From positions 65,895 to 97,894 of the forward strand of contig NZ_LWLG01000005.1 of the NCBI RefSeq assembly GCF_001652585.1: a DNA stretch of 32,000 nt, given 5' to 3'. The DNA is from Thermosulfurimonas dismutans (GTDB lineage: Bacteria > Desulfobacterota > Thermodesulfobacteria > Thermodesulfobacteriales > Thermodesulfobacteriaceae). Position numbers and translations under genes: made by a program. The notes beneath the pieces are model-generated. The model was not told the DNA's origin. It ran no database searches and saw only the letters and a list, made by a program, of their open reading frames with translations. This document shows, in pieces, positions 1-31,685 of the stretch (position 1 is its first letter; every line of letters starts with the position of its first letter).

Positions 1-900
1 ATCTAAACGGGCTTTCATAATAGGGCCCAGCAGGTCAAGCCGCCTTATGTCGAGCCACCGTTCATCCGGCCAATCTTTTAAAGGTTTACCTAAAACCTCC
101 TCCGAAAATTTGGAAGCGTCTGGACGCCATGGCTCATAAGTTCCGGCACTAAAATAACATATCACTTTCCGTCCCCGGCGATGGAGTTCCTGTATCACTT
201 CCACCGGGGTTCCAAAAAGATCCACATCAAACATTTCTGCCTCTACCGAAGTATCTATCTCGCCGGTTAGTTGCCATTGCCATGTGGTTCCCGGAGCCGG
301 TTTCCAGATCTCTTTTCCGGAACCGAAATCTATCAGGCCCAAAGCCTTTCGCAGAATCACCAGAGCATCACCGATGATGATTTGACCATCCGGATTCGGC
401 TGCTGGTTTTTTCCCAGCGGGGCTACATCGGCGTGACACCGATCCTCCTCCGTCACTATCTCAAGCCCTAGGGCGAAGCGCAGGGCTAACACGGCGTCAC
501 CAATATTTACCTGTCCGTCTCGTGATCCCTGTGGAGCCACATCGCCGTCGGGGATACATTCTGGCCCGTTTTTACACTCTCCAGCATAGGCCACATTTAC
601 TCCTGCCAGATGGGCCTCACAGGCATTGGCATAAGTTCGTCCATCGCACCCACAAACCGGATCATATACTTGAATACAGACTTCTGGAAGAGGAACACAC
701 GTTCCTGAACCACCACAACCCTCCTTCCGCCAGCAGAATTCACCTTTTTTACAATCCTGATTAGAAAAACAACCTGGGTATATTTCTTTACATCGCCCGG
801 GAGTTAAAAGAAAACCCAAAATGACTAAACCACACAGAACAAGATTAGATAGGATCTGAGCAAAAATTCTATAACTATACGGTCCAGTCCTGATCCCCAT
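1..900 (-). CDS. Secreted Kazal-like / dockerin-like / GH114-like (endo-alpha-1,4-polygalactosaminidase family) protein; 3' end lies beyond the window
   Basis: This gene is absent from the ORF track because it runs off the window. Manual minus-strand translation from the ATG at 900-898 gives 300 codons with no stop. It starts MGIRTGPYSYRIFAQILSNLVLCGLVILGF (signal/TM-like). A Kazal pattern follows at ~574-699 (VCIQVYDPVCGCDGRTYANACEAHLAGVNVAYAGEC), then a dockerin-like module at 325-558. The rest reads WQWQLTGEID..KVICYFSAGTYEPWRPD..WPDERWLDIR, which resembles the GH114/TM1410-type fold. A GGTGA Shine-Dalgarno sequence lies just upstream of the ATG. Confidence 0.8.
   Translation of the reverse strand, partial: MGIRTGPYSYRIFAQILSNLVLCGLVILGFLLTPGRCKEIYPGCFSNQDCKKGEFCWRKEGCGGSGTCVPLPEVCIQVYDPVCGCDGRTYANACEAHLAGVNVAYAGECKNGPECIPDGDVAPQGSRDGQVNIGDAVLALRFALGLEIVTEEDRCHADVAPLGKNQQPNPDGQIIIGDALVILRKALGLIDFGSGKEIWKPAPGTTWQWQLTGEIDTSVEAEMFDVDLFGTPVEVIQELHRRGRKVICYFSAGTYEPWRPDASKFSEEVLGKPLKDWPDERWLDIRRLDLLGPIMKARLD
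325..558 (-). other. Dockerin-like module (internal, between the Kazal-like and GH114-like domains)
   Basis: CIPDGDVAPQGSRDGQVNIGDAVLALRFALGLEIVTEEDRCHADVAPLGKNQQPNPDGQIIIGDALVILRKALGLIDF (manual translation). Confidence 0.75.
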
Positions 901-925
901 TCACCAATCAGATTATTTTGTATTT

Positions 926-3496
926 TTACCAGTTAACCAGTCCCAGAGCCTTTCTCAAGATTACCACCGCATCGCCAATGGTAATTTTACCGTCAGGCTG
1001 TGGCTTACCATCCTGTCCAAGCGGAGCCACATCCGCATGGCACAAATCCTCATCCGAGGGCCTCTCAAGCCCCAGGGCGAACCGTAAGGCTACCAGGGCA
1101 TCCCCGATGTTCACCTGACCATCACGGTTACCCAGCGGGGCTACGTCACCGTCAGGGGTGCACGTCCTTTTATATAAGGCTTTTACCACCGGCAATCTTA
1201 CCCCTAAATATTGATCTACAGGGGTAAAATCGTAGTATTTTTGAACAAAATCAGTTCTCAGGTGAAGCAAGGCGTACTTATCAGCATTATGAATGGAATA
1301 ACAAAAAAAGCCTTCCTCTAACTCACCAATGGGTTGCGCCACCGTAATACGGAAACTGGAGTCTTCAGGAGGCGGCGGAAGATACCACTCTGCTGGCCCT
1401 GTTATAGGTTCAACGGTAATAAAAGACGTAAATGGCCTGAAATCAAAACATATTTTTTCTTGGTAAACAAAAATCTCTGGAATAGGAGAAAAATTATTTA
1501 TTTCTTGGTAAAGCATGGCTTCAGGAGAAAAATCCCAATTATTTATTTCCGCAGAGTAAATAACCGAGGCGCCGTTGTACTGGGTAAGATTCAAAAGGTA
1601 GGAAGTTTCTGGCTCAAAGACCAGAAGGAAATCTCGTCCGGCTTCAGACAAGAGAGGGAGTCCACCCGTTGAGTCTTTCACCTGTCGCACAAAGAGTCGG
1701 ATTGATTTTAGATCGTTATTTTTAAATTCCTTGAGACTAAATGATTGCTGACTGTGAACCCGTATTTTGCGGGTGGGATGGGCTGATCCATTTACATAAA
1801 CTAGGACGAAATAGTCGCCAGACCCCTGTAGGCTGAACTCTAAGTTCTCCCTCTCCAATAGTTTCAATTCGGGAGGGTTGAAAGAAGGAATATTTTCATT
1901 AGTCCAGATAAAAAGTTTCTGCCATAGTTCGTCGTTATTATAGCCGAAAATCTGTGGAAAAACTTCTTCATGGGTTTGATAGGCAAGCAGGTTCCAGTAC
2001 TGAACGATTTTATCTTGCGGCTCTTTCACCCAAAAGATGGGGAAAATAATACCATTTAGGGAAGTGGACATGGTATAACATTCAGTAGCCGCTCCTCCAC
2101 AACGGTAAAATATCTCATCGGATCTCAGGTGTATAAAGTTTTCCAGCACACGGCTTGCCTCAAAAACCTCTTTAGCTGTGGCGTGGCGGGAATCTTGAGA
2201 ATAGCCGTAACCAGGGTTTCCAGCAAAAGTTACGACCAACCCTTCATTCCGCCACATAGGTATGATTTCATTTTCACCTCCAAAGGCCCGCGATAAATTG
2301 AGTATATGATCAAGAGCATGGGCTAATTCGTGTAAAAGTGTGTCCGCTGACGCGATGCCTGAAGAAATAGCTCCCAAAAGATGCCAAAAAGGTACTCCTG
2401 TTATATAACTTGCTAGCATCACGTTATTAGAACAATTATAATAATTGTCGTCGGAATTTCCGGATTCCAAATTACACAACTCTCTGGCAAAATTTATGTC
2501 AGTTGAATAATAATAGACAGCAATATTGGGAGCCCAATCCTTTTCAAATCCCCAGTATTTGAAGTACCCGGTATCTTTGGCTCTTTGAGAGTATTTTAAA
2601 AGCCTCTCCGCATAGGGTTTTATAAAAGACTTACTTTTTGGCCAGTAAACCACAAAGTTTTCACTAAAGAGACTGGATATTTCCGTAGTTGGTGGGCCAA
2701 CCACAACTACTGATTCAAAACATTCTTTCTCGTCTTCACTACAGACCTTGGGATAGTAAATGCCTGAACTACGGTATGAGTGATAGAATTCGCTTACTCT
2801 TGAATCAGTTTCAGTAAGACGGCTATCGAATTCTCCATCACCTTCAAAATCGAGTTTCAACTCGGGACAGAAATCGAAACACCAGATTTTAAAACGCATC
2901 TTTGCTCCTTGAAGAACGATACCCGGTTGTGGTTCAAATCTTTCAAGTTTAAAGGAACCTTCTCTAACAAAACGAATAAAGGGTCTCGGAACAAGACCAG
3001 AATTGTCGACACCTCCATAAGGATGATCTTCTCCCCACTCTAAACGCCACAACCATCTATCTCTTGAAACCATCCAGAATCCATCTTTTGGCCAGACGGG
3101 AGAATCTGCTATTACGGCCTGGCGATAGCCTTCGGCTTCCTGAAAATCGATTTTCAAATAAAAAAGCTTCTTTTGATCCAATTTGGGAACAGGAACCCTA
3201 AGCCATCCCGGCCCTTGGGATAAGGCTTCACCAACTTTTGTTTTAGATATGATTTCACTACCATTGATGGAAATCTCGTAGACCAAAAGTTTCGTTCCCG
3301 GAGCGTTCACAAGAACTTCAATGGCTACGGTGTTTTCGGGTGCTTCCACAACGATACCGGTGGTATCGCCCCATTCGGAAAGAGCAAAAGATCTTAAGGG
3401 CGGTATTGAGGTGGCATAAAACGGATAAAATACTTCTTGAGCGGCAACAGTTTGACACAAAACAAACAAAGAGAGAAATAAAAGAAAAGCTACCAT
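926..3496 (-). CDS. Secreted peptidase-MA-like (HExxH) protein with C-terminal dockerin-like module
   Basis: The ORF is 856 aa with a signal-like N-terminus (MVAFLLFLSLFVLCQTVAAQE). HELAHALDH is followed ~25 aa later by PMWRNEGL, a gluzincin / peptidase_MA-like arrangement (from family knowledge). The last 78 aa are the dockerin-like module. It is a full-length paralogue of 7421..10051. Its ATG overlaps the upstream stop (ATGGTAG, 3490-3496), suggesting translational coupling. Confidence 0.85.
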   Translation of the reverse strand: MVAFLLFLSLFVLCQTVAAQEVFYPFYATSIPPLRSFALSEWGDTTGIVVEAPENTVAIEVLVNAPGTKLLVYEISINGSEIISKTKVGEALSQGPGWLRVPVPKLDQKKLFYLKIDFQEAEGYRQAVIADSPVWPKDGFWMVSRDRWLWRLEWGEDHPYGGVDNSGLVPRPFIRFVREGSFKLERFEPQPGIVLQGAKMRFKIWCFDFCPELKLDFEGDGEFDSRLTETDSRVSEFYHSYRSSGIYYPKVCSEDEKECFESVVVVGPPTTEISSLFSENFVVYWPKSKSFIKPYAERLLKYSQRAKDTGYFKYWGFEKDWAPNIAVYYYSTDINFARELCNLESGNSDDNYYNCSNNVMLASYITGVPFWHLLGAISSGIASADTLLHELAHALDHILNLSRAFGGENEIIPMWRNEGLVVTFAGNPGYGYSQDSRHATAKEVFEASRVLENFIHLRSDEIFYRCGGAATECYTMSTSLNGIIFPIFWVKEPQDKIVQYWNLLAYQTHEEVFPQIFGYNNDELWQKLFIWTNENIPSFNPPELKLLERENLEFSLQGSGDYFVLVYVNGSAHPTRKIRVHSQQSFSLKEFKNNDLKSIRLFVRQVKDSTGGLPLLSEAGRDFLLVFEPETSYLLNLTQYNGASVIYSAEINNWDFSPEAMLYQEINNFSPIPEIFVYQEKICFDFRPFTSFITVEPITGPAEWYLPPPPEDSSFRITVAQPIGELEEGFFCYSIHNADKYALLHLRTDFVQKYYDFTPVDQYLGVRLPVVKALYKRTCTPDGDVAPLGNRDGQVNIGDALVALRFALGLERPSDEDLCHADVAPLGQDGKPQPDGKITIGDAVVILRKALGLVNW
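929..1162 (-). other. Dockerin-like module (C-terminal, 78 aa)
   Basis: CTPDGDVAPLGNRDGQVNIGDALVALRFALGLERPSDEDLCHADVAPLGQDGKPQPDGKITIGDAVVILRKALGLVNW. It consists of two related half-segments, each a loop plus an amphipathic helix. Confidence 0.75.
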
Positions 3497-4974
3497 GTTA
3501 TCAACCCCAATGCCTTCCGTAAAATTACTAGAGCGTCACCGATAGTTATCTGTCCATCCGGTGCCGGTACACCGTTTTCAATAGGAGCCACGTCCGCATG
3601 GCACTTATCCTCATCGCTTGGTGTCTCAAGCCCTAAAGCAAACCGCAGGGCCACCAGGGCGTCCCCAATGTTCACCTGACCGTCACGGTTCCCCAACGGG
3701 GCCACGTCGCCGTCGGGGGTGCAGTTCCCCCAACCGGGCCAAATGGCGGTATCTGTTTCGCTTATACGGAGGCGGAGCGTACGACCATCAGAAAGCTCGA
3801 AAGAAACCGTCTCTCCCAGTGTTCCATTTAGAGAAATTTTCAAAGTGTTTAAATCTATAAAATCCGCCGAAACAGAAACTCCTGAAGGATACCTATACCG
3901 ATAACTTCTGATAAGATCGGTGCCATTGGCCGGCACAAAATAAAAAGCATATGTCTGCCCTGAGCGTACCGGCAATTCTATATCGAAAGCATCAATCCTA
4001 TAATAAGGAAATTCGAGACTACGAGTGTAAAATTCCCAGGAAAAATCTTTTGTCTCTCCGTCTATGTTAAAAATAGCTTCTACGGTATATTTCTCTCCCC
4101 ATTCGAGTCTACTTTGAGGAAAAAGGGCAAATTCAAAAGCGGAAAATCTCCTGTTTGGATCAGAGGCTTCATCCATTAACAAAGTAGAAACCAAATTTCC
4201 CGCAGAATCATAAAGGTTAAAGCTGAACATTTGTACGGTATTTACTTTGTAAGGATTGAATTGTACGGAAATCGGATATCCGCTTACGCTTCGATCCGGC
4301 AAAGGATCAGGAAACTCTTCATAGAAGACCGGAGGAACGGTGTCTCCGGGAGGAGGCCATCTCACCACGAGAGGGTTATCGGTAGCCACGATTGAAGGAT
4401 CTTTTCTGGTGCCCAAATCGTAAACATAATAAACGGTTCCTCTATCATCAATAGCTTTTCCGAAACCTATTTCGTCAAAGTAAAAAGATAAAAAACCAAA
4501 GCGATGGTATATGGCCGAAAAGAGATCGTCTATGGATTCCTGAAAATTTTCCTCCCCCCAGGATAAATTTTCCCCGATTGCTTTATAGTTATAGCCTGCG
4601 GCCGCAGCTCGATCGGCCGGAGTCACACCGGTAAAATAAGGAAGCCCGGGAGTTTCAGTGTGCCCTATGTCCTGGTTGGTGGCTATGTAGCGGGCATGAG
4701 ACTCGGCAGCCTGCGTCAGGGCCTGATTTTCAGAAAAAGGAATCATACCCACCGAAGATCTCAAGGCGTTGAGATATTGGAGATAACTTCCATAAGCCTG
4801 GCGAGTAACACGAGAGGGTCCGTGAAAGAGCGGCCTTTGAAAAATTCTTTCTCGCCAACTCTCAACCCCCGCAAGGTCTCCGGAAAAACCGTGCTCCGGA
4901 AGGAAAGCCGCCCCCCATAAAATCAGTGCAAACCAAAAAACCTTACATAATTTGGGCCAGAGAGACTTTTTCAT
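3490..4974 (-). CDS. Secreted CAP/SCP (PR-1-like) domain protein with C-terminal dockerin-like module
   Basis: The ORF is 494 aa with signal peptide MKKSLWPKLCKVFWFALILWGAAF. A CAP-domain pattern runs at about aa 61-162 (YLNALRSSVGMIPFSENQALTQAAESHARYIATNQDIGHTE..DRAAAAGYNYKAIGENLSWG). An unassigned middle region follows. The terminal 77 aa (3493-3723) are the dockerin-like module. Confidence 0.85.
   Translation of the reverse strand: MKKSLWPKLCKVFWFALILWGAAFLPEHGFSGDLAGVESWRERIFQRPLFHGPSRVTRQAYGSYLQYLNALRSSVGMIPFSENQALTQAAESHARYIATNQDIGHTETPGLPYFTGVTPADRAAAAGYNYKAIGENLSWGEENFQESIDDLFSAIYHRFGFLSFYFDEIGFGKAIDDRGTVYYVYDLGTRKDPSIVATDNPLVVRWPPPGDTVPPVFYEEFPDPLPDRSVSGYPISVQFNPYKVNTVQMFSFNLYDSAGNLVSTLLMDEASDPNRRFSAFEFALFPQSRLEWGEKYTVEAIFNIDGETKDFSWEFYTRSLEFPYYRIDAFDIELPVRSGQTYAFYFVPANGTDLIRSYRYRYPSGVSVSADFIDLNTLKISLNGTLGETVSFELSDGRTLRLRISETDTAIWPGWGNCTPDGDVAPLGNRDGQVNIGDALVALRFALGLETPSDEDKCHADVAPIENGVPAPDGQITIGDALVILRKALGLITW
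3493..3723 (-). other. Dockerin-like module (C-terminal, 77 aa)
   Basis: CTPDGDVAPLGNRDGQVNIGDALVALRFALGLETPSDEDKCHADVAPIENGVPAPDGQITIGDALVILRKALGLITW. Confidence 0.75.
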
Positions 4975-5275
4975 TTTTATACACCAGCCATATATTTGAG
5001 TTAGAACGATCCAAAATAAGTTTCAAAGGGGCAGGTACCTTTTTTGGATACAAAATTACGGGCCTGGAGATTACCAGGGATCTCAAATTGGGCCTCAATT
5101 TTTCCTTTTCCTTATATGCTACCAGCACCTTTCGATTGTTTTCCAAAATCAAAACCTTGAGATCTCTAGCCACCAGTTCTCGAAAGAGCGGGCTATCGAA
5201 AATAAGAACCTTTTCTTTACGCACATAAAAATCCTTAGCCTCGAGATGTACGGTGAAGTTCCCTATATAAAACAC
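4943..5275 (-). CDS. Hypothetical small protein; start uncertain
   Basis: This 110-aa ORF starts at GTG and is co-directional with the cluster. It overlaps the next gene start by 32 nt. The same frame stays open upstream to ~5440 and there encodes a TM-like stretch (FVIILFLGGVFFGVIGWYLL) with no ATG/GTG/TTG. I recognised no family. Confidence 0.4.
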   Translation of the reverse strand: MFYIGNFTVHLEAKDFYVRKEKVLIFDSPLFRELVARDLKVLILENNRKVLVAYKEKEKLRPNLRSLVISRPVILYPKKVPAPLKLILDRSNSNIWLVYKNEKVSLAQIM

Positions 5276-5442
5276 AAAATGGACATCACGGAGATATTTT
5301 CCCGCCGAAGCAAAGCGCGAAAGGGAGTTAGCAGGGGAAACCGACGATTTTTCTGTTGTTTTAAGGTGAAGCAGATACCATCCTATTACACCAAAGAAAA
5401 CACCACCCAGAAATAAAATTATTACAAATTTCTGTTTAAAAG

Positions 5443-7344: not shown

Positions 7345-7420
7345 TATTTCCCCCCACTTACTAAAGCTTTCTAAAATCAGCTACCAGGCAGGAATAACTC
7401 CCACCGGGCAGCCAAATCGC

Positions 7421-10051: not shown

Positions 10052-10097
10052 CCTACATTACACAGGTCGAAAATACACTCAATGTCTCCTTCAAAAC

Positions 10098-15616: not shown

Positions 15617-15652
15617 ATCTTGCCCCCTCCCCTTAATCGTATCTTGCCCCCC

Positions 15653-15868
15653 CTATTCACACCCTAGCACCGTCAGTCTTGCCCTACACCTAACTGCATG
15701 GCCGTCGAGGTCGAAGTAGGTGGCGGAAGCACCGAAATCGTTTGCGGTAAGGGTGGTTCTGCCTTCGTCTTTCACCACAAAGGCCAGGTGCACCAGCGGA
15801 GAGCCATTAGCGGGATGACCCGGAGCGTTCATAAGTCCTACCTCGCAGTAGAACTTTTGGCCCCCCAA
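15653..15868 (-). pseudogene. 5'-truncated relic of a lipoprotein-type cohesin-like gene
   Basis: The 71-aa ORF (..VGLMNAPGHPANGSPLVHLAFVVKDEGRTTLTANDFGASATYFDLDGHAVRCRARLTVLGCE) aligns with the C-terminal half of the 10098..10916 cohesin-like module (VGVMNASGLPSNGASLVKMVFRLKGEGDSVLSASDFQVHSSCFDLDGRSVGCRPHLIVSECN). The N-terminal half, linker and signal are missing. Its apparent start sits inside a terminator hairpin. Confidence 0.65.
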
Positions 15869-15895
15869 AATAGCGGGGGGCTTTGCGCCCCCCGC
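15867..15895 (-). terminator. Rho-independent terminator downstream of the 923-aa lipoprotein gene
   Basis: On the minus strand: GCGGGGGG (15895-15888), 7-nt loop, CCCCCCGC (15880-15873), then TATTTT. This is a perfect 8-bp GC stem plus a T-tract, 9 nt after the stop codon at 15904. Confidence 0.7.
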
Positions 15896-15903
15896 CGATT
15901 AGA

Positions 15904-18675
15904 TTACTGACAGGTAAATTCCACTATCTGTGCCGGACAAGCAAAAGTATTCCCGGAAAGATCCGAACAGGTAGCATTACCATCAGGAATAATTGCAAGC
16001 TCGCTCTCCTGAGGCTCACTACACAATCCCTGATTCTGAGGAGTTGAGAAGGTAAGCTTAAGCACCGCTGAGCCGTCCGCAGGAAATCCACCGGCTGAAA
16101 TGAGCCCAATCTTCACATGGGTTCCATTATCATTGGGAACCACCAGTCCTCCCTGAGCCGCTCCAATAGCTACCACATTATCAAATCCAAGCGCAGTCTC
16201 TGGATAGTCCACGGTCACATCCACTCCTCCAATCGTACCATTGGCCGTAACCCCGAGCTTCAGTGTGCAGGTGTAAGCCTTGGGCTGAGTCACCCCGACC
16301 GAGGTCTGGCCGGACACACCATCCACCGTCACCCGCACCGTGGAATTCTGACTGCCGGCGGTAAGCGTCACCGCAGCCACCCCTACCTTATCTACATCGT
16401 TCCAGCCGATGGGAATGCTCACCTGGCTCAACACTCCATCACCCTGAGTCACCTCAAAAGCCGCATCTCCTATGGCATCCTTGTTAGTGCAGGAATCGAA
16501 ATCAGCAAGGTGAATGGTGGCCTTGATGGTGGAGTTGCCCCCGGCGCACACGGTAGCAGGCTCGGCCCGCACATCAATTCCCGTAACCGTGCACGGATCC
16601 TGAGCCACCTGAATGGCAACCTCGTTGGAAGTTTTGCCCTCAGAGGTGGCCTTCACCTTGACCTCACCCGGAGCGTTAACCGTGAGCGTGGTGCTAGCCT
16701 TACCGGTGGCATCGGTCTGAGCCGTAGGCGGATTCACGTACCCATCACCGCTCACTACCTCAAAGGTCACCTCTTTGCCCGAAAGATCGCCGCACTGCTC
16801 GGCATTAACCACCTGCACCTGAGCCATAAGTTGTGTGCTGTCTCCGGCCGTAAGAGAGGTTTTATTGGCGCTAAGCGTCACCCCCGTAACCGTACACGGA
16901 TGTTCCGCCACCTGAATAGTAACCTCGTTGGAAGTCTTGCCCTCAGAGGTGGCCTTCACCTTGATCTCCCCCGGAGCATTGGCCGTAAGGGTGGTGCTGG
17001 CATTACCACTAGCATCCGTCACCGTCGTGGCCGGGTTCACCGTCCCATCTCCGCTCACCACCTCAAAGGTCACCTGCTTTCCGGAAAGATCAGCACAGAT
17101 ATCCGGATTGACTACTTCTACTTGGGCCGTGAGATTGGCACTCTCGCCCGCCACGACCGAAATAGGGGTGGCGTTAAGGCTTACCGCCTTAACCGCACAC
17201 GGATCAGGGGCCACGTAAGACATAGCAACCCTACGATGTATTCCAGTGCAGGGATCCTCCACCAAAGCTACTAATTTAGCCATACCGGCTCCCTGAACTT
17301 CCAGTGGCGCTACCGCATATCCATCAGTATCAATATCTACTTCTATCTCCTTCTTTCCACCTGTGAAAGTAACCTGGCCTTTCACAATCTTAAATGTCAC
17401 CTTTCCGGAAGGAGTGCCATTTCCGGAAAGCGGAGCTACCATGGCTTTCACTTTCCATTGATTAGTAGTTTGATCAAAATATATCCCAGCCATTGAAATC
17501 TCATCCACACTATCAGCATTGCAAACCTTAATCAGCACGGGATTGGAGGTCCGGTTATCACTAGTTACAGCCGTAATCCTGAACACACTTCCCGCCGGAG
17601 CACTTCCGGCACATACTTGAGCGGAAGCTTCAGTAAGCGTATTACCCTGAACAGGATTGGGATTTATAGCAAGGGTGCCATTGGTGGCATTCCCTACAGG
17701 CATAGCGTCAAAAGCAATCTCACTTATCTGAGGCCCCTCTCCACATCCTATTACACCCGCGATTTTTGCCGTAAGTTTGCTACACACCTGTCCATCGGAA
17801 GAAATAATTATCCTATCTCCCGAAAGACCTACAGCATAAGAACAATAATTCTGAAGTGTAGAGCCGATCTGATCCAAAATATTTGTATAATTACCTGAAA
17901 TGGGGTTTCCGTTTACTTGCCCATCCATAACACCATCTTGGAGGTCCTGAAGAAGAGCTACAAACCCCTGCAACAACTTCTCCCACAGTGAAAGGAAATC
18001 CGTCTGAATCTGAAGGAGACGGCTTATGGCATCCGCCAGAACTCTATTATAAGGCGGCTCGTAATCCCTTATGCTAAAATGGTGCTCCGTAAAAAGTTTT
18101 TTGATATATTCTTCTCTTTCGCTACCGAATTCCTCTCGAGCCCGTTCTCGGACGTGGTACACCAGTGTCCTTACGGGCTCAAATTCCGGATCGTTTTCAA
18201 TTTGCGTAAAATTGTCACTATGTTTTTCCACTAGAGCACTGGTATCCACAGTAAGAAAGGCATAATATAGGGCACCTGAAATAATATCTGCCCCTTTGTG
18301 AACTACATTTCCATCTTCGTCCATAATAAACCCTTGGAGAGGAGGAGCCGCCAGAGTATCATTTCCGACCTGCATGGTACCGTTCTCACTCTTCAATGTA
18401 AGCCGAGTACAATTAGCTACCTCCACAGGATTTAGCTTGAACTGAAAATTTCCCTCCCCATCCGTTTGTCCGAGCTTCTTCAATTTCTTTCCGTCACACA
18501 GGAGCCACACAGTAGCGTTAGCCACCGGGTCCTTACTCACACTTCCAACGACCGTGGCTCCAGAGGTGGTACCGGAAGTCTCCTCTCCGCCACCACCTCC
18601 ACCACCTCCACAGGCCACAAGCAGCAAAGGAAGCACAAATACCCATAACCACAAACCCAACCTTCTCCAACTCAT
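15904..18675 (-). CDS. Lipoprotein with poly-Gly linker, CarboxypepD_reg-like and Big-like Ig repeats, and a C-terminal cohesin-like module (candidate anchoring scaffoldin)
   Basis: The ORF is 923 aa. It starts MSWRRLGLWLWVFVLPLLLVACGGGGGGGGEE (lipobox LVAC). VVGSVSKDPVANATVWLLCDGKKLKKLGQTDGEGNFQFKL resembles a carboxypeptidase-regulatory-like fold. Three Big-like repeats are present, two of them near-identical. The cohesin-like module is at 15907-16284. A GAAGGGGG Shine-Dalgarno sequence precedes the ATG. Confidence 0.9.
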   Translation of the reverse strand: MSWRRLGLWLWVFVLPLLLVACGGGGGGGGEETSGTTSGATVVGSVSKDPVANATVWLLCDGKKLKKLGQTDGEGNFQFKLNPVEVANCTRLTLKSENGTMQVGNDTLAAPPLQGFIMDEDGNVVHKGADIISGALYYAFLTVDTSALVEKHSDNFTQIENDPEFEPVRTLVYHVRERAREEFGSEREEYIKKLFTEHHFSIRDYEPPYNRVLADAISRLLQIQTDFLSLWEKLLQGFVALLQDLQDGVMDGQVNGNPISGNYTNILDQIGSTLQNYCSYAVGLSGDRIIISSDGQVCSKLTAKIAGVIGCGEGPQISEIAFDAMPVGNATNGTLAINPNPVQGNTLTEASAQVCAGSAPAGSVFRITAVTSDNRTSNPVLIKVCNADSVDEISMAGIYFDQTTNQWKVKAMVAPLSGNGTPSGKVTFKIVKGQVTFTGGKKEIEVDIDTDGYAVAPLEVQGAGMAKLVALVEDPCTGIHRRVAMSYVAPDPCAVKAVSLNATPISVVAGESANLTAQVEVVNPDICADLSGKQVTFEVVSGDGTVNPATTVTDASGNASTTLTANAPGEIKVKATSEGKTSNEVTIQVAEHPCTVTGVTLSANKTSLTAGDSTQLMAQVQVVNAEQCGDLSGKEVTFEVVSGDGYVNPPTAQTDATGKASTTLTVNAPGEVKVKATSEGKTSNEVAIQVAQDPCTVTGIDVRAEPATVCAGGNSTIKATIHLADFDSCTNKDAIGDAAFEVTQGDGVLSQVSIPIGWNDVDKVGVAAVTLTAGSQNSTVRVTVDGVSGQTSVGVTQPKAYTCTLKLGVTANGTIGGVDVTVDYPETALGFDNVVAIGAAQGGLVVPNDNGTHVKIGLISAGGFPADGSAVLKLTFSTPQNQGLCSEPQESELAIIPDGNATCSDLSGNTFACPAQIVEFTCQ
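15907..16284 (-). other. Cohesin-like module (lipoprotein type, Cys-rich C-terminus)
   Basis: CTLKLGVTANGTIGGVDVTVDYPETALGFDNVVAIGAAQGGLVVPNDNGTHVKIGLISAGGFPADGSAVLKLTFSTPQ...CSDLSGNTFACPAQIVEFTCQ. Confidence 0.6.
16600..17205 (-). repeat. Tandem 2 x 303-bp coding repeat (Big-like Ig domains); a third, divergent copy follows at ~16285-16599
   Basis: Unit A is DPCAVKAVSLNATPISVVAGESANLTAQVEVVNPDICADLSGKQVTFEVVSGDG..IKVKATSEGKTSNEVTIQVAE. Unit B is HPCTVTGVTLSANKTSLTAGDSTQLMAQVQVVNAEQCGDLSGKEVTFEVVSGDG..VKVKATSEGKTSNEVAIQVAQ. Long stretches are identical at the nucleotide level, e.g. aacctcgttggaagt(t/c)ttgccctcagaggtggccttcaccttga. Confidence 0.85.
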
Positions 18676-18777
18676 AGCTTTACCCCCTTCTATTTGTTTT
18701 TTAGAAATTTTTTTTCGTAGCTTTTCAAATCTCGCTTTTACAATTACCTTTAATTTGTTTGTTAAGTACTGGTATCA

Positions 18778-21129
18778 TCATGAAACCAATCCCAGGGCCA
18801 TGCGCAGGATCACCAGGGCGTCGCCGATGGTGATCTTGCCATCCGGCTGGGGTGTTCCGTCCGCCGCAAGCGGGGCCACATCCGCGTGGCATTTGTCTTC
18901 CTCCGAAGGTGTCTCAAGCCCCAAGGCAAACCGCAGGGTCACCAGAGCGTCACCGATATTCACCTTTCCGTCCCGGGCACCCAGCGGGGCCACGTCCCCG
19001 TCCGGCGTGCAGAGAGGAGGAACGGGCACGGTGAAGTTCCACCGCTCGGACTGAACCGCCCCACCCTTCCCATCCGAAGCCTCCACATACCAGTAATAAG
19101 TAGTTCCATTCTCAAGATCGGCGATGGTGCAGGTGGTCTGCGTTATACCTATACATCCCACAACTGGATGAAAACTCTCCTCCCCCTGTCTGGCAAGAAA
19201 AACGGTATATCTTACGGTGTCGTTTTCACTATCCAAAGAAGCCTGCCAGGAAAGGGTTACCGGGGCCGGGGTCTCACTTCCGGACTCAGGTGATATTAAT
19301 GCCGGTGCGGAAGGGGGAGTATTGTCCTCAAAGGAGATCACTCCACCGTCGGTGGCGGCATACCACCGAGAGCCTATCTTCACCAGGTCGTAAAGAGTGT
19401 AGAGATCATTTATAAAATATTGAAATCTCGTCCAGGTCTTTCCCCCGTCTTTGGACTGGTAAAGGCCGTTGTCGGTGCGAGCGAAAAATCGAGAAGGATC
19501 TTCAGGATCAGGATATACCTTGTACACCTCCTGCACCCCAGCAAGACTTACTTTCTGAAAAGAACCAGTGTCCTGGTAATATATATAAAGACCATTTCGG
19601 GTGGAAACGAAGGCCTTACCGGAGAAGAGCTGAATATCGTTTATATCCTTTATTCCGGTGTCTCGCCAGGTGCTACCGTTGTCGGAGGAAACAAAAAGAT
19701 GTTTTTCATAATTCACACTGCTTACGGCATAAATTGTTCCCCGTTCCATGTCATAAGCCACCTCACTTACACTTCCGTCCGTTGGCCCGGATATGAACCC
19801 CCAAGTCTCCCCTCCGTCAGTGCTCATATAAATGCCATATCCCTGCCCCCCATCCCAGGAAGAAAGGTAACCCGCAACCCATATCTCAAGAGGATGATTT
19901 TTAGGATCCGGAAAATAATAGTCGTAAAGGGAGCCTTTCCATATCACCGAACAGTTATCGAAATCGAGAGAACACCGACTGAAATGGGTGTACTCCGTCT
20001 CGTAATAAGCGTAATCTCCCACCACGGTAAAAGTTTTGAAATCCTCATAAGGCCTTGCGGGTTCTTTAAAAAGTTCCCACCTTTTTTTCTTAAACGAGTA
20101 CTTATAAATTCCCTTTCTATCAATATCAATTGTAGCCCAAAGGTCGCCAGAGGAATCCTTTTCTAAAAATTTAAGACTATATCCGGTGGCCACTCCATAC
20201 TTTTGCCATGTATTTCCGCCATCGGTGGAAATTTCGAGATAGCCGTTCCTTCCGAGCCAGATAGTCTCTCCCCGTACCGCCACGGAATAAACCGCCTCCG
20301 GGGCGATAAAGCTCCAGGTTTGGCCCTGATCGTCCGAACGATAAAGACCTCCACTGGTGGCCAGCCAGATATGCCCCTGGGAATCAATAACCGCATCGTT
20401 TACATAATCCGAAAGACCGAGCTCCCGAAAACTTCCCCCGGTGTCCGTAGAGATGTAGCCCTTTCCCCCACCTATTACCAGAACTGGATTTCCGTTTCTC
20501 GCGGCGGAGATTTTTATTCCATCATACCAATCCTTGGGAAGCCCGGTTCCCACCTTCTCCCAGGAGAGCCCTCCGTCATCGGAACGATATAAACCCTCAG
20601 CTTCTATATAAACATAAACTCGGTTATCATAGAAAGGAGAAAACCAAATATTTGAATAGTAATTTGAAATATTTAACACCTTTAAAAAATTTTTCCCTTC
20701 ATCTTGTGAAAAATAAATTGCATCTCCTTCCAACCCAACTAAAATTTGAGATCCTTGAGCCTGAATGTCATAAATGTTTCCTTTAAATGTAAAAAGATCA
20801 TACCAATTTCGACCTCCATCTCCAGAAATCATTAAAATGCCATAATTACTACTATATAACCGATAAGGATCCTCCTGATCTACGGCAAGCGGAAGTCTTG
20901 TGGAGACCCGCACAAAATGGCGACCGCCGTCGCGGCTCTGGTAAAGTACACCACCACAAATCACGTAAAGGAACGTACCGTTGGAGGATTCCGGAAGCAG
21001 GATTTCTACCCGGCCACAGGAGGTAACGACCAGGTCCTCACTTGGTCCCAGATGCTCCACCCCTTCCACCATTGCCATAAGAGGCGTAGACCAAATAAAC
21101 AAGAGAAGGAAAGTCAAAAACATCCTCAA
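18778..21129 (-). CDS. Secreted BNR/Asp-box repeat beta-propeller protein with FN3-like domain and C-terminal dockerin-like module
   Basis: The ORF is 783 aa with signal peptide MRMFLTFLLLFIWSTPLMAM. It has about 10 Asp-box motifs (SRDGGRHF, SGDGGRNW, SQDEGKNF, SDDGGLSW, STDTGGSF, SDDQGQTW, STDGGNTW, STDGGETW, SSDNGSTW, SKDGGKTW). An FN3-like segment reads VTLSWQASLDSENDTVRYTVF..TTYYWYVEASDGKG. The dockerin-like module is at 18781-19011. A strong AAGGAGG Shine-Dalgarno sequence lies 10 nt upstream of the ATG. Confidence 0.9.
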   Translation of the reverse strand: MRMFLTFLLLFIWSTPLMAMVEGVEHLGPSEDLVVTSCGRVEILLPESSNGTFLYVICGGVLYQSRDGGRHFVRVSTRLPLAVDQEDPYRLYSSNYGILMISGDGGRNWYDLFTFKGNIYDIQAQGSQILVGLEGDAIYFSQDEGKNFLKVLNISNYYSNIWFSPFYDNRVYVYIEAEGLYRSDDGGLSWEKVGTGLPKDWYDGIKISAARNGNPVLVIGGGKGYISTDTGGSFRELGLSDYVNDAVIDSQGHIWLATSGGLYRSDDQGQTWSFIAPEAVYSVAVRGETIWLGRNGYLEISTDGGNTWQKYGVATGYSLKFLEKDSSGDLWATIDIDRKGIYKYSFKKKRWELFKEPARPYEDFKTFTVVGDYAYYETEYTHFSRCSLDFDNCSVIWKGSLYDYYFPDPKNHPLEIWVAGYLSSWDGGQGYGIYMSTDGGETWGFISGPTDGSVSEVAYDMERGTIYAVSSVNYEKHLFVSSDNGSTWRDTGIKDINDIQLFSGKAFVSTRNGLYIYYQDTGSFQKVSLAGVQEVYKVYPDPEDPSRFFARTDNGLYQSKDGGKTWTRFQYFINDLYTLYDLVKIGSRWYAATDGGVISFEDNTPPSAPALISPESGSETPAPVTLSWQASLDSENDTVRYTVFLARQGEESFHPVVGCIGITQTTCTIADLENGTTYYWYVEASDGKGGAVQSERWNFTVPVPPLCTPDGDVAPLGARDGKVNIGDALVTLRFALGLETPSEEDKCHADVAPLAADGTPQPDGKITIGDALVILRMALGLVS
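18781..19011 (-). other. Dockerin-like module (C-terminal, 77 aa)
   Basis: CTPDGDVAPLGARDGKVNIGDALVTLRFALGLETPSEEDKCHADVAPLAADGTPQPDGKITIGDALVILRMALGLVS. Confidence 0.75.
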
Positions 21130-23665: not shown

Positions 23666-23721
23666 CTGAAAGCTCCTTTCTTCATGAGATGGTTAGTTTT
23701 TACACTTCATCAGTCATCCCG

Positions 23722-31079: not shown

Positions 31080-31605
31080 CAGTTCATCCCCTTTCAAAAA
31101 ATCAATCACCTCTAGATCCTTTCTTAATATCACCAGGCTGAAGACTCCCATCCTCCCCTAAGAGAGCCATATCTGCATGGCACTTATCCTCGTCCGTCAA
31201 CATCTCAAGCCCCAAGACGAACCATAGGATTACCAGAGCATCGTCAAGATTTACTTTTTCCCAGTTCCTTAAAAGAGCGACATTTCCATCATAAAGGCAT
31301 TTTGTTTACATACTCCTTTTTATTCCGAAAGCGAGAGCTATCCAGACATTGCTGTAAATATGCCCGTCACAGCCACAAAGCAGATCATAAAGTTGAATGT
31401 AGACTTTAGGACTAGGTACACAATATCTCGGCTTCCACGCAGCTCGTTCTAAATTTACAAAATCTGCTGGAGCCACAATCCTGGCTATTCTAATCCCCCC
31501 TTTCTGACGGAACAAAAAGAGACCAACACCACACATATATCCCAGAATCAAATATAGCCACCTTATCTTACAAAATTTATCTTCCATAATAACCAATAAT
31601 CTCAA
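31080..31605 (-). pseudogene. Decayed paralogue of the N-terminal part (signal, Kazal-like, dockerin-like) of the 1..900 gene
   Basis: The 99-aa ORF at 31306..31605 ends CVPSPKVYIQLYDLLCGCDGHIYSNVWIALAFGIKRSM*. Compare CVPLPEVCIQVYDPVCGCDGRTYANACEAHLAGVNVAY in the intact gene; several Cys are lost. After the stop it continues CLYDGNVALLRNWEKVNLDDALVILWFVLGLEMLTDEDKCHADMALLGEDG, then a frameshift, then SLVILRKDLEVIDF. Confidence 0.7.
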
Positions 31606-31685
31606 CTTTTTAGAGACCTTTGCAAAATCAGATTGACAATTTTATTTCTCATAATAAACTCACTTAAAAACTAAAGGAGTTGAGC

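What the first reader, a model, noticed from the sequence alone, without database searches (positions are those of the whole stretch)
1..21129. Lipoprotein-anchored cohesin-dockerin-like assembly locus with entirely non-cellulolytic cargo
Ten co-directional genes, several with overlapping stop/start codons (ATGA at 10913-10916, ATGGTAG at 3490-3496), all encode exported proteins. Seven carry the same ~78-aa dockerin-like module: the GH114-like protein, two peptidase-MA-like paralogues, the CAP/SCP protein, a 633-aa unknown, the BNR propeller, and the 1567-aa giant. Four cohesin-like modules sit on three proteins, and two of these begin with an LVAC lipobox. This implies lipid anchoring to a membrane rather than SLH or sortase anchoring. 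Receptors and ligands are therefore encoded side by side, as in cellulosome gene clusters, but no cellulase or CBM is present. The cargo (a polygalactosaminidase-like hydrolase, metallopeptidases, a CAP domain, a Kazal-like inhibitor, a BNR propeller) suggests a surface complex acting on exopolysaccharide and protein matrix, or on other cells. Non-cellulosomal cohesin/dockerin modules are known to be widespread. A complete, clustered, lipoprotein-anchored system with this cargo set would be functionally uncharacterised as far as I know.
Basis: partly seen in the sequence, partly recalled or inferred. Interest (0 to 1): 0.85.

Follow-up and report, generated by a model that had tools for sequence, protein, structure and literature searches.

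The report
Lipoprotein-anchored cohesin–dockerin locus, non-cellulolytic cargo
A hot-vent sulfur bacterium (Thermosulfurimonas dismutans) keeps in one gene cluster all the parts of a "plug-and-socket" protein assembly kit like the one cellulose-degrading bacteria use, but tied to the membrane by lipid anchors and loaded with non-cellulase proteins. The kind of system is already known; this is a compact version in an organism that can be grown in culture.

Summary
Window 1-21129 (minus strand) carries nine large co-directional genes for signal-peptide proteins, plus one small conserved ORF. Seven proteins carry the same ~80-aa two-segment module. Its predicted fold (pLDDT 92.7) matches only dockerins among solved structures. 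Four cohesin modules sit on three proteins. Two of these (F, H) start with an LVAC lipobox. The third (G) has two cohesins plus a dockerin, the architecture of an adaptor scaffoldin. The cohesin profile hits the Archaeoglobus cohesin 2XDH (E 5e-9) and retrieves multi-cohesin proteins. One modelled cohesin matches only cohesins in the PDB.

The source is Thermosulfurimonas dismutans, a diderm thermophilic autotroph. GenBank already labels several of these proteins dockerin or cohesin, but I found no paper discussing the locus.

Not shown: cohesin–dockerin binding, lipidation, and location (outer surface or periplasm). "Peptidase MA-like" rests on an HExxH…WxxEG motif alone.

Non-cellulosomal cohesin–dockerin systems are already described in Archaeoglobus, ANME archaea, Cloacimonadota and syntrophic sulfate reducers, the last including an eight-gene expressed cluster. 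This is a new variant of a known kind. Its distinguishing features are lipobox anchors, one conserved dockerin type with loop insertions and a Cys pair, and a single-locus layout. Interest is moderate.

The parts
1..900 (-). Gene A (5' part only; runs off the window start). Order: signal/TM segment, Kazal-type domain (about 550-687), internal dockerin (325-561), GH114 catalytic domain N-terminal part (1-285).
   Evidence: Pfam GH114 1.7e-34 and Kazal_1 3.4e-5. PDB 6oj1 endo-alpha-1,4-polygalactosaminidase 7.8e-28, and Kazal inhibitors down to 2.6e-7. Dockerin found.
926..3496 (-). Gene B, 856 aa. Signal peptide, unknown body with HELAH…WRNEG motif (HExxH at 2318-2332), C-terminal dockerin (929-1165). 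Paralogue of E (70% aa identity).
   Evidence: No Pfam, NCBIfam or PDB match other than the dockerin.
3490..4974 (-). Gene C, 494 aa. Signal peptide, CAP/SCP domain (4423-4782), unknown middle region, C-terminal dockerin (3493-3726).
   Evidence: Pfam CAP 7.2e-10, 40.2 bits against a cut-off of 21.1. Dockerin.
4943..5437 (-). Small conserved ORF: a TM helix plus about 110 aa. No ATG/GTG/TTG lies before the TM segment.
   Evidence: Open frame read. 40% identity over 105 aa (E 2e-15) to the equivalent position in D. okinawensis locus L009.
5443..7344 (-). Gene D, 633 aa. Signal peptide followed directly by an N-terminal dockerin (7033-7269), then an unknown body.
   Evidence: No PDB or Pfam match for the body. 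The body is 30-32% identical to two ORFs next to the cohesin gene of D. okinawensis.
7421..10051 (-). Gene E, 876 aa. Paralogue of B, with HESAH…WRHEG motif (HExxH at 8813-8827) and a C-terminal dockerin (7424-7660).
10098..10916 (-). Gene F, 272 aa from ATG 10916. Lipoprotein signal with LVAC lipobox (10863-10874), a linker of about 127 aa rich in G/S/E/A, and a C-terminal cohesin (10101-10481).
   Evidence: Lipobox. Linker composition. Cohesin: A1 profile 157 bits; phmmer links to H-type and multi-cohesin proteins. A 95%-identical 272-aa relative starts at the same Met.
10913..15616 (-). Gene G, 1567 aa, adaptor-scaffoldin-like. Order: signal peptide, unknown low-GC N-terminal ~700 aa, FN3, three InlB B-repeats, PKD, cohesin 1 (11558-11968), cohesin 2 (11168-11536), C-terminal dockerin (10916-11161).
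   Evidence: Pfam Cohesin 33.3 bits (cut-off 24.1), Flg_new_2, PKD and fn3. AF2 model: cohesin 1 blocks at pLDDT 77-90, dockerin 87-98, cohesin 2 low. Foldseek top 50 hits are all cohesin structures. GC break.
15653..15898 (-). Cohesin remnant: the C-terminal half of an F-like cohesin, lying between the H stop and the G start.
   Evidence: A1 profile E 1.3e-8, profile positions 64-124. 71-aa ORF.
15904..18675 (-). Gene H, 923 aa. Lipoprotein signal with LVAC lipobox (18610-18621), poly-Gly, CarboxypepD_reg-like domain, unassigned region, Big_1/PKD Ig-like repeats, C-terminal cohesin (15907-16308).
   Evidence: Pfam Big_1 1.4e-16. Lipobox. Cohesin: A1 profile 159 bits; phmmer to G at 3.9e-14 and to PF00963 protein P0085 at 3.6e-10.
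18778..21129 (-). Gene I, 783 aa. Signal peptide, BNR/Sortilin-Vps10-type beta-propeller, FN3, C-terminal dockerin (18781-19014).
   Evidence: Pfam Sortilin-Vps10 1.7e-21, BNR and fn3. NCBIfam F510_1955-family glycosylhydrolase 2.1e-36, below its cut-off.
21490..22368 (+). Transposase with HTH and integrase-core (rve_3) domains, flanking the cluster. My reading is IS481-like. It is context, not a component.
   Evidence: Pfam HTH_29 and rve_3. GenBank name 'Mobile element protein'.
31105..31641 (-). Decayed, stop-interrupted copy of the Kazal+dockerin N-terminal part of gene A: an eighth, dead dockerin.
   Evidence: A3 dockerin profile E 8.2e-12. Translations.

Best explanation
The locus encodes a self-contained, non-cellulosomal cohesin–dockerin assembly system of Thermosulfurimonas dismutans.

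Proposed mechanism (inferred):
1. Two lipoproteins present one cohesin each at the end of a tether. F has a ~127-residue flexible linker. H has a rod of Ig-like domains.
2. G, exported through a Sec signal peptide, carries two more cohesins and one dockerin. It can plug into F or H, or into another G, and so multiply the docking sites.
3. Six further exported proteins carry the same conserved dockerin and are captured on these cohesins, presumably in a Ca2+-dependent way. They are a GH114 polygalactosaminidase-like enzyme with a Kazal domain, two HExxH paralogues, a CAP-domain protein, an unknown 633-aa protein and a BNR propeller.
4. This produces an envelope-tethered mixture of hydrolase-like and binding proteins.

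The host is an autotroph that does not use organic substrates. The cargo therefore most likely remodels or attacks extracellular matrix (GalN/GalNAc-type exopolysaccharide, proteins), either its own or its neighbours', rather than feeding the cell.

Shown: module identities, folds, lipobox sequences, gene arrangement, purifying selection on the dockerin.
Inferred: binding, stoichiometry, lipidation, location, substrate.
For: Cohesins. Pfam PF00963 passes for G cohesin 1. The four-module profile hits 2XDH at E 4.7e-9. It gives 357 hits at E<=1e-3 among 1.84 billion representatives; 8 of the 9 top non-self hits scanned are PF00963 proteins, several with 2-5 cohesins. Each module links to cohesin proteins on its own. 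The AF2 model of G cohesin 1 matches only cohesins (TM 0.76, rmsd 2.2 Å to 5nrk_A).

Dockerin. The module has a duplicated loop-helix segment. 20 of 33 family members hit PF00404 at E<=0.01. The AF2 model has pLDDT 92.7 and three helices. The top 16 PDB matches are all dockerin chains from cohesin–dockerin complexes (TM 0.87, rmsd 1.8 Å to 2ccl_B).

Selection. Modules are 71-92% identical in protein but only 40-61% at third codon positions. They are old copies kept alike by selection, as expected for a shared binding surface.

Position. The dockerin is N-terminal in D, internal in A and C-terminal in the other five. This fits a binding module and not a terminal sorting tag.

Anchors and export. 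Canonical LVAC lipoboxes in F and H, and signal-like N-termini on all nine proteins.

Co-occurrence. Desulfothermus okinawensis has the same Cys-pair dockerin subtype (82% identity). It also has the closest relative of the F/H cohesin subtype, sitting next to a D-like gene and the same small ORF.

Host biology. [quoted passage not shown]
Against: No binding test or multimer prediction could be run.

The four cohesins are only 23-38% identical to G cohesin 1, while the seven dockerins are nearly the same. It is therefore not certain that all four bind this dockerin.

The cohesin 2 model is low-confidence, and the F and H cohesins were not modelled.

The dockerin misses the Pfam cut-off, and its Ca2+ loops carry 4- and 9-residue insertions.

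In a diderm, surface exposure needs additional machinery, which is not seen in the window.

Other loci with this dockerin type have no cohesin within the up to 10 kb of flank available.

The catalytic competence of B and E is unverified.
Confidence: 0.6

Rival explanations
1. Same cohesin–dockerin assembly, but periplasmic. F and H are anchored to the inner membrane or to the inner leaflet of the outer membrane. The dockerin proteins stay in the periplasm, forming a tethered periplasmic or envelope-maintenance complex and not a surface complex.
For: The host is diderm (outer membrane drawn in PMC4911364). All components carry only Sec/SPII-type signals. No secretion-system gene and no surface-export signal is seen in the window. 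The top NCBIfam match for the CAP domain is the divisome-associated lipoprotein DalA, though far below its cut-off.
Against: The domains are typical of extracellular proteins: InlB repeats, PKD, FN3, intimin-like Big_1 rods and a 1567-aa giant. GH114 enzymes act on exopolysaccharide. A Kazal inhibitor domain suggests exposure to foreign proteases. Described cohesin–dockerin systems are extracellular (PMC9012536, PMC8542988).
Confidence: 0.2
2. The modules are genuine, but the local cohesins and dockerins are not each other's partners. The dockerins would bind something else, such as cohesins on other cells (heterotypic adhesion, as proposed for ANME–SRB consortia) or a matrix polymer. The local cohesins would serve as Ig-like spacers or bind other ligands.
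For: Four divergent cohesins face one dockerin type. Elsewhere this dockerin type occurs without nearby cohesins. The literature proposes partner recognition by cohesin/dockerin proteins (PMC10553843).
Against: Receptor and ligand modules are encoded side by side, with translationally coupled genes. G combines both module types, as adaptor scaffoldins do. The same cohesin subtype and dockerin subtype co-occur in D. okinawensis. T. dismutans is grown as a pure culture (PMC4911364), so no obligate partner is required.
Confidence: 0.12
3. The locus is a horizontally acquired, decaying island with no coherent present function.
For: A transposase flanks the cluster. A cohesin remnant and a dead Kazal+dockerin copy are present. 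There is a sharp GC break inside G, 24-36% against 50% for the genome (PMC4911364). The small ORF lacks a canonical start.
Against: Nine long ORFs (272-1567 aa, plus the 300 codons of A that lie in the window) are intact. The dockerins are under strong purifying selection. Signal peptides and lipoboxes are preserved.
Confidence: 0.05

Closest known systems
Cohesin/dockerin 'adhesin' gene clusters of syntrophic sulfate-reducing bacteria and ANME archaea (Ca. Desulfofervidus/HotSeep-1 AMM40420-AMM40427; Seep-SRB2 dockerin/sialidase PXF57311). Sources: Murali et al. 2023 (PMC10553843) and Chadwick et al. 2022 (PMC9012536).
   Same: Non-cellulolytic, anaerobic sulfur-cycle organisms, HotSeep-1 among them being thermophilic. 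Several cohesin and dockerin genes lie clustered, eight consecutive genes in HotSeep-1. They are associated with Ig-like, sialidase/BNR-like and fibronectin domains. Scaffoldin-like proteins combining a dockerin with several cohesins are described in ANME. Function is unknown and an adhesion or matrix role has been proposed.
   Different: Those papers link the systems to the syntrophic lifestyle and report no close homologs in non-syntrophic SRB (file 14). T. dismutans is a free-living autotroph grown in pure culture. Lipobox anchoring, the single dockerin type and the cargo set are not described there. A sequence relationship to AMM40420-27 could not be tested here.
Archaeoglobus fulgidus non-cellulosomal cohesin–dockerin pair (PDB 2XDH; Bayer 1999 and Haimovitz 2008, as cited in PMC9012536).
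   Same: It is the best solved-structure sequence match of the four cohesins (E 4.7e-9) and a structural match as well. It comes from a hyperthermophilic sulfate reducer that is not cellulolytic. Archaeal cohesin–dockerin binding has been verified experimentally, according to PMC9012536.
   Different: It is archaeal, so there is no outer membrane. Per Peer 2009, as summarised in PMC9012536, the archaea surveyed lack scaffoldins with multiple cohesins. Here G has two cohesins plus a dockerin, and two separate lipoprotein anchors exist.
Cellulosomes of Clostridia (for example the C. thermocellum CipA/OlpB system).
   Same: The logic is the same: cohesin jelly-roll modules on non-catalytic scaffold and anchor proteins, and a duplicated Ca2+-loop/helix dockerin on many different cargo proteins. 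There is an adaptor with both module types, and scaffold and cargo genes are clustered. The two dockerin halves are near-symmetric (IGDALVxLRxALGL twice), as in dual-binding-mode type I dockerins.
   Different: There are no cellulases, hemicellulases or CBMs. Anchoring is by lipobox, not by SLH domains or sortase. The host is a diderm. The dockerin loops carry 4- and 9-residue insertions (D-V-[APLG]-N-R-D-G… and D-V-[APLGADGRP]-N-P-D-G…) and a Cys pair. Only about 4 sockets serve 7 plugs.
Cellulosome-like complex proposed for Ca. Stygibacter (Cloacimonadota), Williams et al. 2021 (PMC8542988).
   Same: A diderm bacterium whose dockerins sit on peptidases and non-cellulase GHs. The system was inferred purely from genomics.
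   Different: There the scaffoldin is one 3755-aa protein with tandem cohesins and CBMs. It is anchored through a conserved C-terminal domain that the authors propose attaches it directly to the cell surface, not through lipoproteins.
Clostridium perfringens toxin/glycosidase cohesin–dockerin complexes and the Ruminococcus bromii amylosome
   Same: These are experimentally supported cohesin–dockerin assemblies with non-cellulolytic cargo. C. perfringens cohesins appear among the structural matches (2jh2, 2w1n, 2vo8).
   Different: They are Gram-positive hosts with carbohydrate-active cargo and no lipoprotein anchors.

Membership tests
Cohesin (Pfam PF00963) | Match to the family profile at the curated threshold | tested here: met
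   G cohesin 1 scores 33.3 bits against a cut-off of 24.1. G cohesin 2 and the F and H cohesins do not reach the Pfam model itself.
Cohesin (Pfam PF00963) | Detectable homology of every module to bona fide cohesins | tested here: met
Cohesin (Pfam PF00963) | Nine-stranded jelly-roll beta-sandwich fold | tested here: inconclusive
   Met for G cohesin 1: pLDDT blocks 77-90, all top 50 Foldseek PDB hits are cohesins, and TM is up to 0.77 normalised to the target. The G cohesin 2 model is low-confidence (pLDDT 25-49).
Dockerin type I (Pfam PF00404) | Match to the family profile at the curated threshold (22.9 bits) | tested here: not met
   11.8-20.6 bits in the full proteins and 22.4 bits for the isolated G module. 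This is narrowly below the cut-off. 20 of 33 members of the wider family hit PF00404 at E<=0.01, the best at 8e-6. Some relatives carried precomputed PF00404 hits.
Dockerin type I (Pfam PF00404) | Tandem duplicated segment, each an EF-hand-like Ca2+ loop (D-x-N-x-D-G-x-x-x-x-x-D) followed by a helix | tested here: met
   Two segments are present in all seven modules. The ligand positions D1, N3, D5, G6 and D12 can be aligned only if 4 residues (APLG) in loop 1 and 9 residues in loop 2 are treated as insertions after position 2. This is read from the sequence. Relatives with an uninserted 'GDLNGDG' first loop exist (P0050, P0054, P0059). Ca2+ binding itself was not tested.
Dockerin type I (Pfam PF00404) | Three-helix dockerin fold | tested here: met
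   AF2 gives pLDDT 92.7, pTM 0.85 and helices at 23-33, 41-47 and 66-76. Foldseek PDB ranks 1-16 are all dockerin chains (probability 0.18-1.00, at or above 0.84 for ranks 1-14; TM up to 0.87). E-values are weak (5e-3 to 2.4), as expected for an 85-residue query.
Cohesin–dockerin system (functional) | Specific, high-affinity, Ca2+-dependent binding of the dockerin to the cohesin | not testable with these tools
   No multimer prediction or experiment was available. Support is indirect only: co-localisation, purifying selection, and co-occurrence of the subtypes in D. okinawensis.
Cellulosome | Dockerin-borne cellulases or hemicellulases, and a cellulose-binding CBM on the scaffoldin | tested here: not met
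   No cellulase, hemicellulase or CBM family appears in any of the nine proteins at E<=0.1. The only GH is GH114.
Cellulosome | Scaffoldin with two or more cohesins | tested here: met
   G carries two cohesins plus a dockerin. This is minimal compared with classical scaffoldins.
Bacterial lipoprotein (SPII substrate) | N-terminal n- and h-regions followed by a lipobox [LVI][ASTVI][GAS]C | tested here: met
   F reads MKKILPFYLALLLILVAC|GGG and H reads …WVFVLPLLLVAC|GGGG. Lipidation and final membrane location are not testable here.
Gluzincin / peptidase clan MA (claimed for B and E) | Profile or structural match to a metallopeptidase family | tested here: not met
   There is no Pfam hit even at E<=10, no NCBIfam hit and no PDB sequence hit. 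Only the motifs HELAH/HESAH followed about 20 residues later by W-R-x-E-G are present. That is compatible with a zincin but not diagnostic.
GH114 (endo-alpha-1,4-polygalactosaminidase family) | Profile match to the GH114 TIM-barrel domain | tested here: met
   Pfam PF03537 at 1.7e-34, covering profile positions 1-100 of 231. PDB 6oj1/6ojb at 8e-28. The rest of the domain lies beyond the window start, so catalytic residues could not all be checked.
Syntrophic-SRB cohesin/dockerin adhesin clusters (Murali 2023) | Sequence orthology to 'dockerin I (adhesin 8)' / 'cohesin 2 (adhesin 14)', for example AMM40420-AMM40427 | not tested
   Those sequences could not be fetched. The genome scan with this locus's dockerin motifs returned only D. 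okinawensis as a close relative.

The most novel reading that the evidence does not exclude
T. dismutans, a free-living thermophilic autotroph available in pure culture, builds a lipid-anchored, outer-surface 'exo-complex'. One disulfide-bearing, insertion-type dockerin would plug six different matrix-active proteins and a self-polymerising adaptor (G) into lipoprotein-borne cohesins. It would be used to remodel or attack Pel/GalN-type biofilm matrix on vent chimneys. This would be the first tractable model for the enigmatic cohesin–dockerin systems of ANME/SRB consortia, and a source of a naturally thermostable cohesin–dockerin pair.
Probability: 0.3. Interest if true: 0.65.

Novelty: new variant of a known kind. 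Interest (0 to 1): 0.5.

Why it matters
Non-cellulosomal cohesin–dockerin modules are common in genomes, but few have an assigned function. In ANME/SRB consortia they are highly expressed and suspected of mediating aggregation, yet those organisms cannot be grown in pure culture.

This locus puts a complete small system in a cultured thermophile: 4 sockets, 7 plugs of one type, and 2 lipid anchors. The binding matrix is small enough to test exhaustively, and localisation and expression can be measured directly.

It also shows the system in a free-living sulfur disproportionator. That qualifies the published statement that such adhesins are absent from non-syntrophic relatives.

Lipobox anchoring of cohesin proteins appears in about 4% of the cohesin homologues inspected, but I found no description of it in the literature searched.

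A cohesin–dockerin pair from a thermophile, cultured at 65 °C in PMC4911364, with Cys pairs in both modules could be useful for protein-assembly engineering.

Tried and rejected
Exact-protein contig look-ups for C, G and H found nothing on record. The organism was identified through cluster membership.

A whole-protein homologue search with F found only one 95% relative. The third homologue search, with the cohesin alignment, returned nothing at E<=1e-3. The exhaustive representative search was needed to find relatives.

The dockerin profile against PDB sequences gave only weak hits: E 0.03-0.6, although 7 of 8 were dockerins. Homology therefore had to be settled by fold.

The metagenome scan with the dockerin motifs found one distant locus. 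The genome scan found only D. okinawensis as a close relative. tblastn of the cohesin-cohesin-dockerin region against plasmids found nothing.

The context of other dockerins of this family (L007, L008, L010-L012) showed no cohesin in the flanks available, so side-by-side encoding is not general for this dockerin type.

The promoter and terminator scan was not above shuffled expectation. Only a hairpin plus T-run right after the H stop (15893-15875) looks plausible.

B, E and D gave no family or structure assignment. 'Peptidase MA' was therefore rejected as a membership claim and kept as a motif-level lead.

A C-terminal sorting-tag reading of the 80-aa module was rejected, because the module is N-terminal in D and internal in A.

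Recent gene conversion was rejected as the cause of dockerin similarity, because third-codon identity is only 40-61%.

Full report
**What is in the window.** All large genes between 1 and 21129 lie on the minus strand.
- A (1-900) is cut by the window start.
- B (926-3496) and E (7421-10051) are paralogues, 70% identical in protein.
- C is 3490-4974 and D is 5443-7344.
- F is 10098-10916 and G is 10913-15616.
- H is 15904-18675 and I is 18778-21129.

ATGGTAG at 3490-3496 holds the B start and the C stop. ATGA at 10913-10916 holds the F start and the G stop. The latter places the true F start at ATG 10916, which gives 272 aa. A 95%-identical relative begins at the same Met.

The other gaps between genes are 25-102 nt, except 468 nt between D and C and 287 nt between H and G. 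The 468-nt gap holds a small open frame (4943-~5437). It encodes a TM helix plus about 110 residues, with no canonical start codon before the TM segment. It is conserved at the equivalent position in Desulfothermus okinawensis (40% identity over 105 aa, E 2e-15).

**Source organism.** An exact-sequence look-up places the proteins in Thermosulfurimonas dismutans, on a 97.9-kb contig (OAQ20910-OAQ20923, with TDIS_1041 and TDIS_1045 among the locus tags). GenBank and UniRef already name B, D and E 'dockerin type I repeat-containing', F 'cohesin domain-containing' (called there as only 142 aa), C 'CAP domain-containing', and G 'InlB B-repeat/PKD'.

The genome paper (PMC4911364) describes a 2.12-Mb genome with 50.1% G+C and 86 predicted signal-peptide proteins. 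The bacterium is a diderm isolated from a deep-sea vent chimney. [quoted passage not shown] The paper contains none of the words I searched for (secret-, extracellular, adhes-, glycoside, peptidase, polysaccharide). No paper in the library contains both 'Thermosulfurimonas' and 'dockerin'.

**The 80-aa module is a dockerin.** A six-frame regex finds exactly seven copies in 1-21129, in A, B, C, D, E, G and I. Mean column identity is 88%.
- *Sequence evidence.* Pfam Dockerin_1 is reached only below threshold: 11.8-20.6 bits in whole proteins and 22.4 bits for the isolated module, against a cut-off of 22.9. The module belongs to a wider family of 73 database relatives. Twenty of 33 aligned members hit PF00404 at E<=0.01. 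Some relatives have a fully canonical first loop, GDLNGDG.
- *Loop anatomy, read from the sequence.* Both loops keep the canonical ligand positions if 4 residues (D-V-[APLG]-N-R-D-G-x-V-N-I-G-D) and 9 residues (D-V-[APLGADGRP]-N-P-D-G-K-I-T-I-G-D) are treated as insertions. The two helices are almost the same (IGDALVxLRxALGL). This is the symmetry seen in dual-binding type I dockerins.
- *Fold evidence.* An AF2 model built on a 50-sequence alignment has pLDDT 92.7 and pTM 0.85, with three helices. Its first 16 Foldseek matches in the PDB are all dockerin chains from cohesin–dockerin complexes. The best geometry is 2ccl_B (TM 0.87, rmsd 1.8 Å). E-values are weak (5e-3 and upward), as expected for so small a domain.
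- *Selection.* The seven copies are 71-92% identical in protein but only 40-61% at third codon positions. They are old duplicates held alike by selection and not by recent conversion.
- *Position.* The module is N-terminal in D, internal in A and C-terminal in the other five. That argues against a terminal sorting signal.
- *Cys pair.* All seven carry a Cys pair (C-x-P-D-G-D… and C-H-A-D…). Most relatives lack it, but D. okinawensis has it.

**The four cohesin-like modules are cohesins.**
- G cohesin 1 passes Pfam PF00963 (33.3 bits against 24.1).
- A profile of the four modules hits the Archaeoglobus fulgidus cohesin 2XDH at E 4.7e-9.
- In an exhaustive search of 1.84 billion representatives the profile finds 357 proteins at E<=1e-3. 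Eight of the nine best non-self hits scanned are PF00963 proteins, several with 2-5 cohesins.
- Each module links to cohesin proteins on its own. Cohesin 2 reaches a five-cohesin protein at 2e-25. H reaches G at 4e-14. F reaches the H type at 1e-11 and a three-cohesin protein at 1e-6.
- In the AF2 model of G residues 1215-1567, cohesin 1 is confident (pLDDT blocks 77-90) and the dockerin is very confident (87-98), but cohesin 2 is not (25-49). All top 50 Foldseek PDB matches are cohesin structures, for example 5nrk_A at E 1e-8, TM 0.76 and rmsd 2.2 Å, and also 2XDH.
- The F and H cohesins were not modelled, so their fold rests on homology.
- All four have a Cys near the first and the last strand. 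A stabilising disulfide is plausible but was not checked.

**Anchors and architecture.** F and H both have a textbook lipoprotein signal ending in LVAC followed by a run of glycines. F continues with about 127 residues rich in G, S, E and A, then the cohesin. H continues with a CarboxypepD_reg-like domain, an unassigned region, Big_1/PKD Ig-like repeats that resemble intimin (sub-threshold), and then the cohesin. G has a Sec-type signal, an unknown N-terminal ~700 residues, FN3, three InlB B-repeats, PKD, two cohesins and a dockerin. This is the architecture of an adaptor scaffoldin. Because its dockerin is of the same type as the cargo dockerins, it could also chain onto itself.

**Cargo.**
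- A has a Kazal-type domain plus dockerin plus GH114. Pfam gives 1.7e-34, and PDB 6oj1 (endo-alpha-1,4-polygalactosaminidase) gives 8e-28.
- C has a CAP domain.
- I has a BNR/Sortilin-type propeller plus FN3.
- D is unknown.
- B and E have no family or structure match at all. They carry only HELAH/HESAH followed by W-R-x-E-G. 'Peptidase MA-like' is therefore a lead and not a finding.
- No cellulase, hemicellulase or CBM is present.

**Comparative evidence.** Scanning one genome per species with the dockerin motifs returned a single close relative. Desulfothermus okinawensis, another thermophile, has an InlB-repeat+PKD+dockerin protein with the same Cys pair (82% identity). Independently, the closest non-self relative of the F/H cohesin subtype (P0079) turned out to be from the same genome. 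There it follows a D-like gene (30-32% identity to D) and the homologue of the small ORF. So the dockerin subtype, the cohesin subtype, the D body and the small ORF travel together in two genomes. This is the best available indirect support that they work together.

Five other loci carrying this dockerin family have no cohesin within the up to 10 kb of flank available. Side-by-side encoding is therefore specific to this system. About 4% (6 of 149) of the cohesin homologues inspected start with a lipobox-like signal. Lipoprotein cohesins thus exist elsewhere, but I found no description of them.

**How it most likely works (inferred).** F and H are lipid-anchored sockets on tethers of different length and stiffness. 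G plugs in and adds two sockets. The six cargo proteins plug in through the shared dockerin.

The host does not use organic substrates. The cargo combines a GalN/GalNAc-polymer hydrolase, a protease-inhibitor domain, two possible zinc hydrolases, a CAP domain and a propeller. Matrix remodelling or interference with neighbours is therefore more plausible than nutrition.

The main uncertainty is topology. In a diderm, Sec and SPII signals alone do not put proteins on the outer surface, and no export machinery is visible in the window. I put about 0.6 on an envelope-anchored cohesin–dockerin assembly as such. Within that, an outer-surface location is only somewhat more likely than a periplasmic one.

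**Relation to what is known.** The kind is known.
- Non-cellulosomal cohesins and dockerins occur in all three domains of life (Peer 2009, not held in the library, known to me and cited in PMC9012536).
- Archaeal pairs bind specifically.
- ANME archaea have dockerin-plus-multi-cohesin proteins.
- Cloacimonadota have a proposed complex with peptidase and GH cargo.
- Syntrophic sulfate reducers have clustered, highly expressed cohesin/dockerin genes. HotSeep-1 AMM40420-AMM40427 is one cluster, and Seep-SRB2 has a dockerin/sialidase protein.

What differs here is the lipobox anchoring, the single insertion-type dockerin with a Cys pair, the complete single-locus layout, and the host, a free-living autotroph in pure culture. 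The SRB study reported such adhesins as absent from non-syntrophic relatives. Hence my rating: new variant of a known kind, moderate interest.

**Signs of flux around the locus.**
- A transposase with HTH and integrase-core domains sits at 21490-22368.
- A half-cohesin remnant lies between H and G, at 15653-15898.
- A stop-riddled copy of the Kazal+dockerin part of A lies at 31105-31641.
- There is a sharp compositional break inside G. Positions 13500-15600 have 24-36% GC, against 43-59% on either side.
- The nine large ORFs are nevertheless intact and the dockerins are under purifying selection, so I rate 'decaying island' as unlikely.

Noticed in passing
window 15653-15898 (-): A truncated cohesin: only the C-terminal half, most similar to the cohesin of F, with its own stop codon. 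It is wedged between the stop of H and the start of G. It is probably the remnant of a third lipoprotein-cohesin gene that lost its 5' part (A1 profile E 1.3e-8).
   Followed up: partly
window 31105-31641 (-): A decayed, stop-interrupted copy of the Kazal domain plus dockerin of gene A, 10 kb outside the reported range and just upstream of the 528-aa ORF at 29565-31151. It is an eighth, dead dockerin (A3 profile E 8e-12).
   Followed up: partly
window 13500-15600 (first ~700 codons of gene G): A sharp GC break. This stretch has 24-36% GC, against 43-59% on both sides and 50.1% for the genome. The N-terminal third to half of G looks like a foreign, low-GC segment fused in frame to the FN3/InlB/PKD/cohesin/dockerin part. 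No family match was found for it.
   Followed up: partly
window 4943-~5437 (-); L009 9336-9650: A small ORF between D and C encodes a TM helix plus about 110 aa, with no ATG/GTG/TTG before the TM segment. It may use a non-canonical start or have lost its start. It is conserved (40% identity) at the same relative position in D. okinawensis, between a D-like gene and the cohesin gene.
   Followed up: partly
L009 (D. okinawensis BBBM01000036) 7056-10384 and L001 (BBBM01000055) 2311-3213: A second thermophile carries a reduced version of the system. It has a D-like gene (split, probably by draft-assembly frameshifts), the small ORF, and a signal peptide plus an F/H-type Cys-rich cohesin at a contig end. 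On another contig it has a G-like InlB-repeat+PKD+dockerin protein without cohesins.
   Followed up: partly
window 21490-22368 (+): A transposase of 292 aa with HTH and rve_3 domains sits directly upstream of the cluster, on the opposite strand. I read it as IS481-like. It separates the cluster from further exported-protein genes.
   Followed up: no
window 22442-28373 (-): Three more signal-peptide proteins without dockerins: a 407-aa protein (UniRef 'GWxTD domain'), an 874-aa protein with two WSC domains and a PAN domain, and a 681-aa protein with a CarboxypepD_reg-like domain. The whole window therefore looks like an exoproteome island in a genome with only 86 predicted signal-peptide proteins.
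   Followed up: no
window 28754-29152 (-): A 132-aa ORF matches only the C-terminal half of the Rrf2 transcription-regulator profile (positions 69-131 of 132). It may be a truncated regulator gene.
   Followed up: no
dockerins at 325-561, 929-1165, 3493-3726, 7033-7269, 7424-7660, 10916-11161, 18781-19014; cohesins at 10101-10481, 11168-11536, 11558-11968, 15907-16308: Every dockerin has a Cys pair that most relatives of the family lack. Every cohesin has a Cys near its first and last strand.
   Followed up: no
P0080, P0083 (cohesin homologues): Several of the closest relatives of G's cohesins look archaeal. One is from a Nitrososphaerota MAG. Two end in a PGFEA…hydrophobic…RRKKK tail that resembles a PGF-CTERM archaeosortase signal. 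This fits the best PDB sequence match being the Archaeoglobus cohesin.
   Followed up: no
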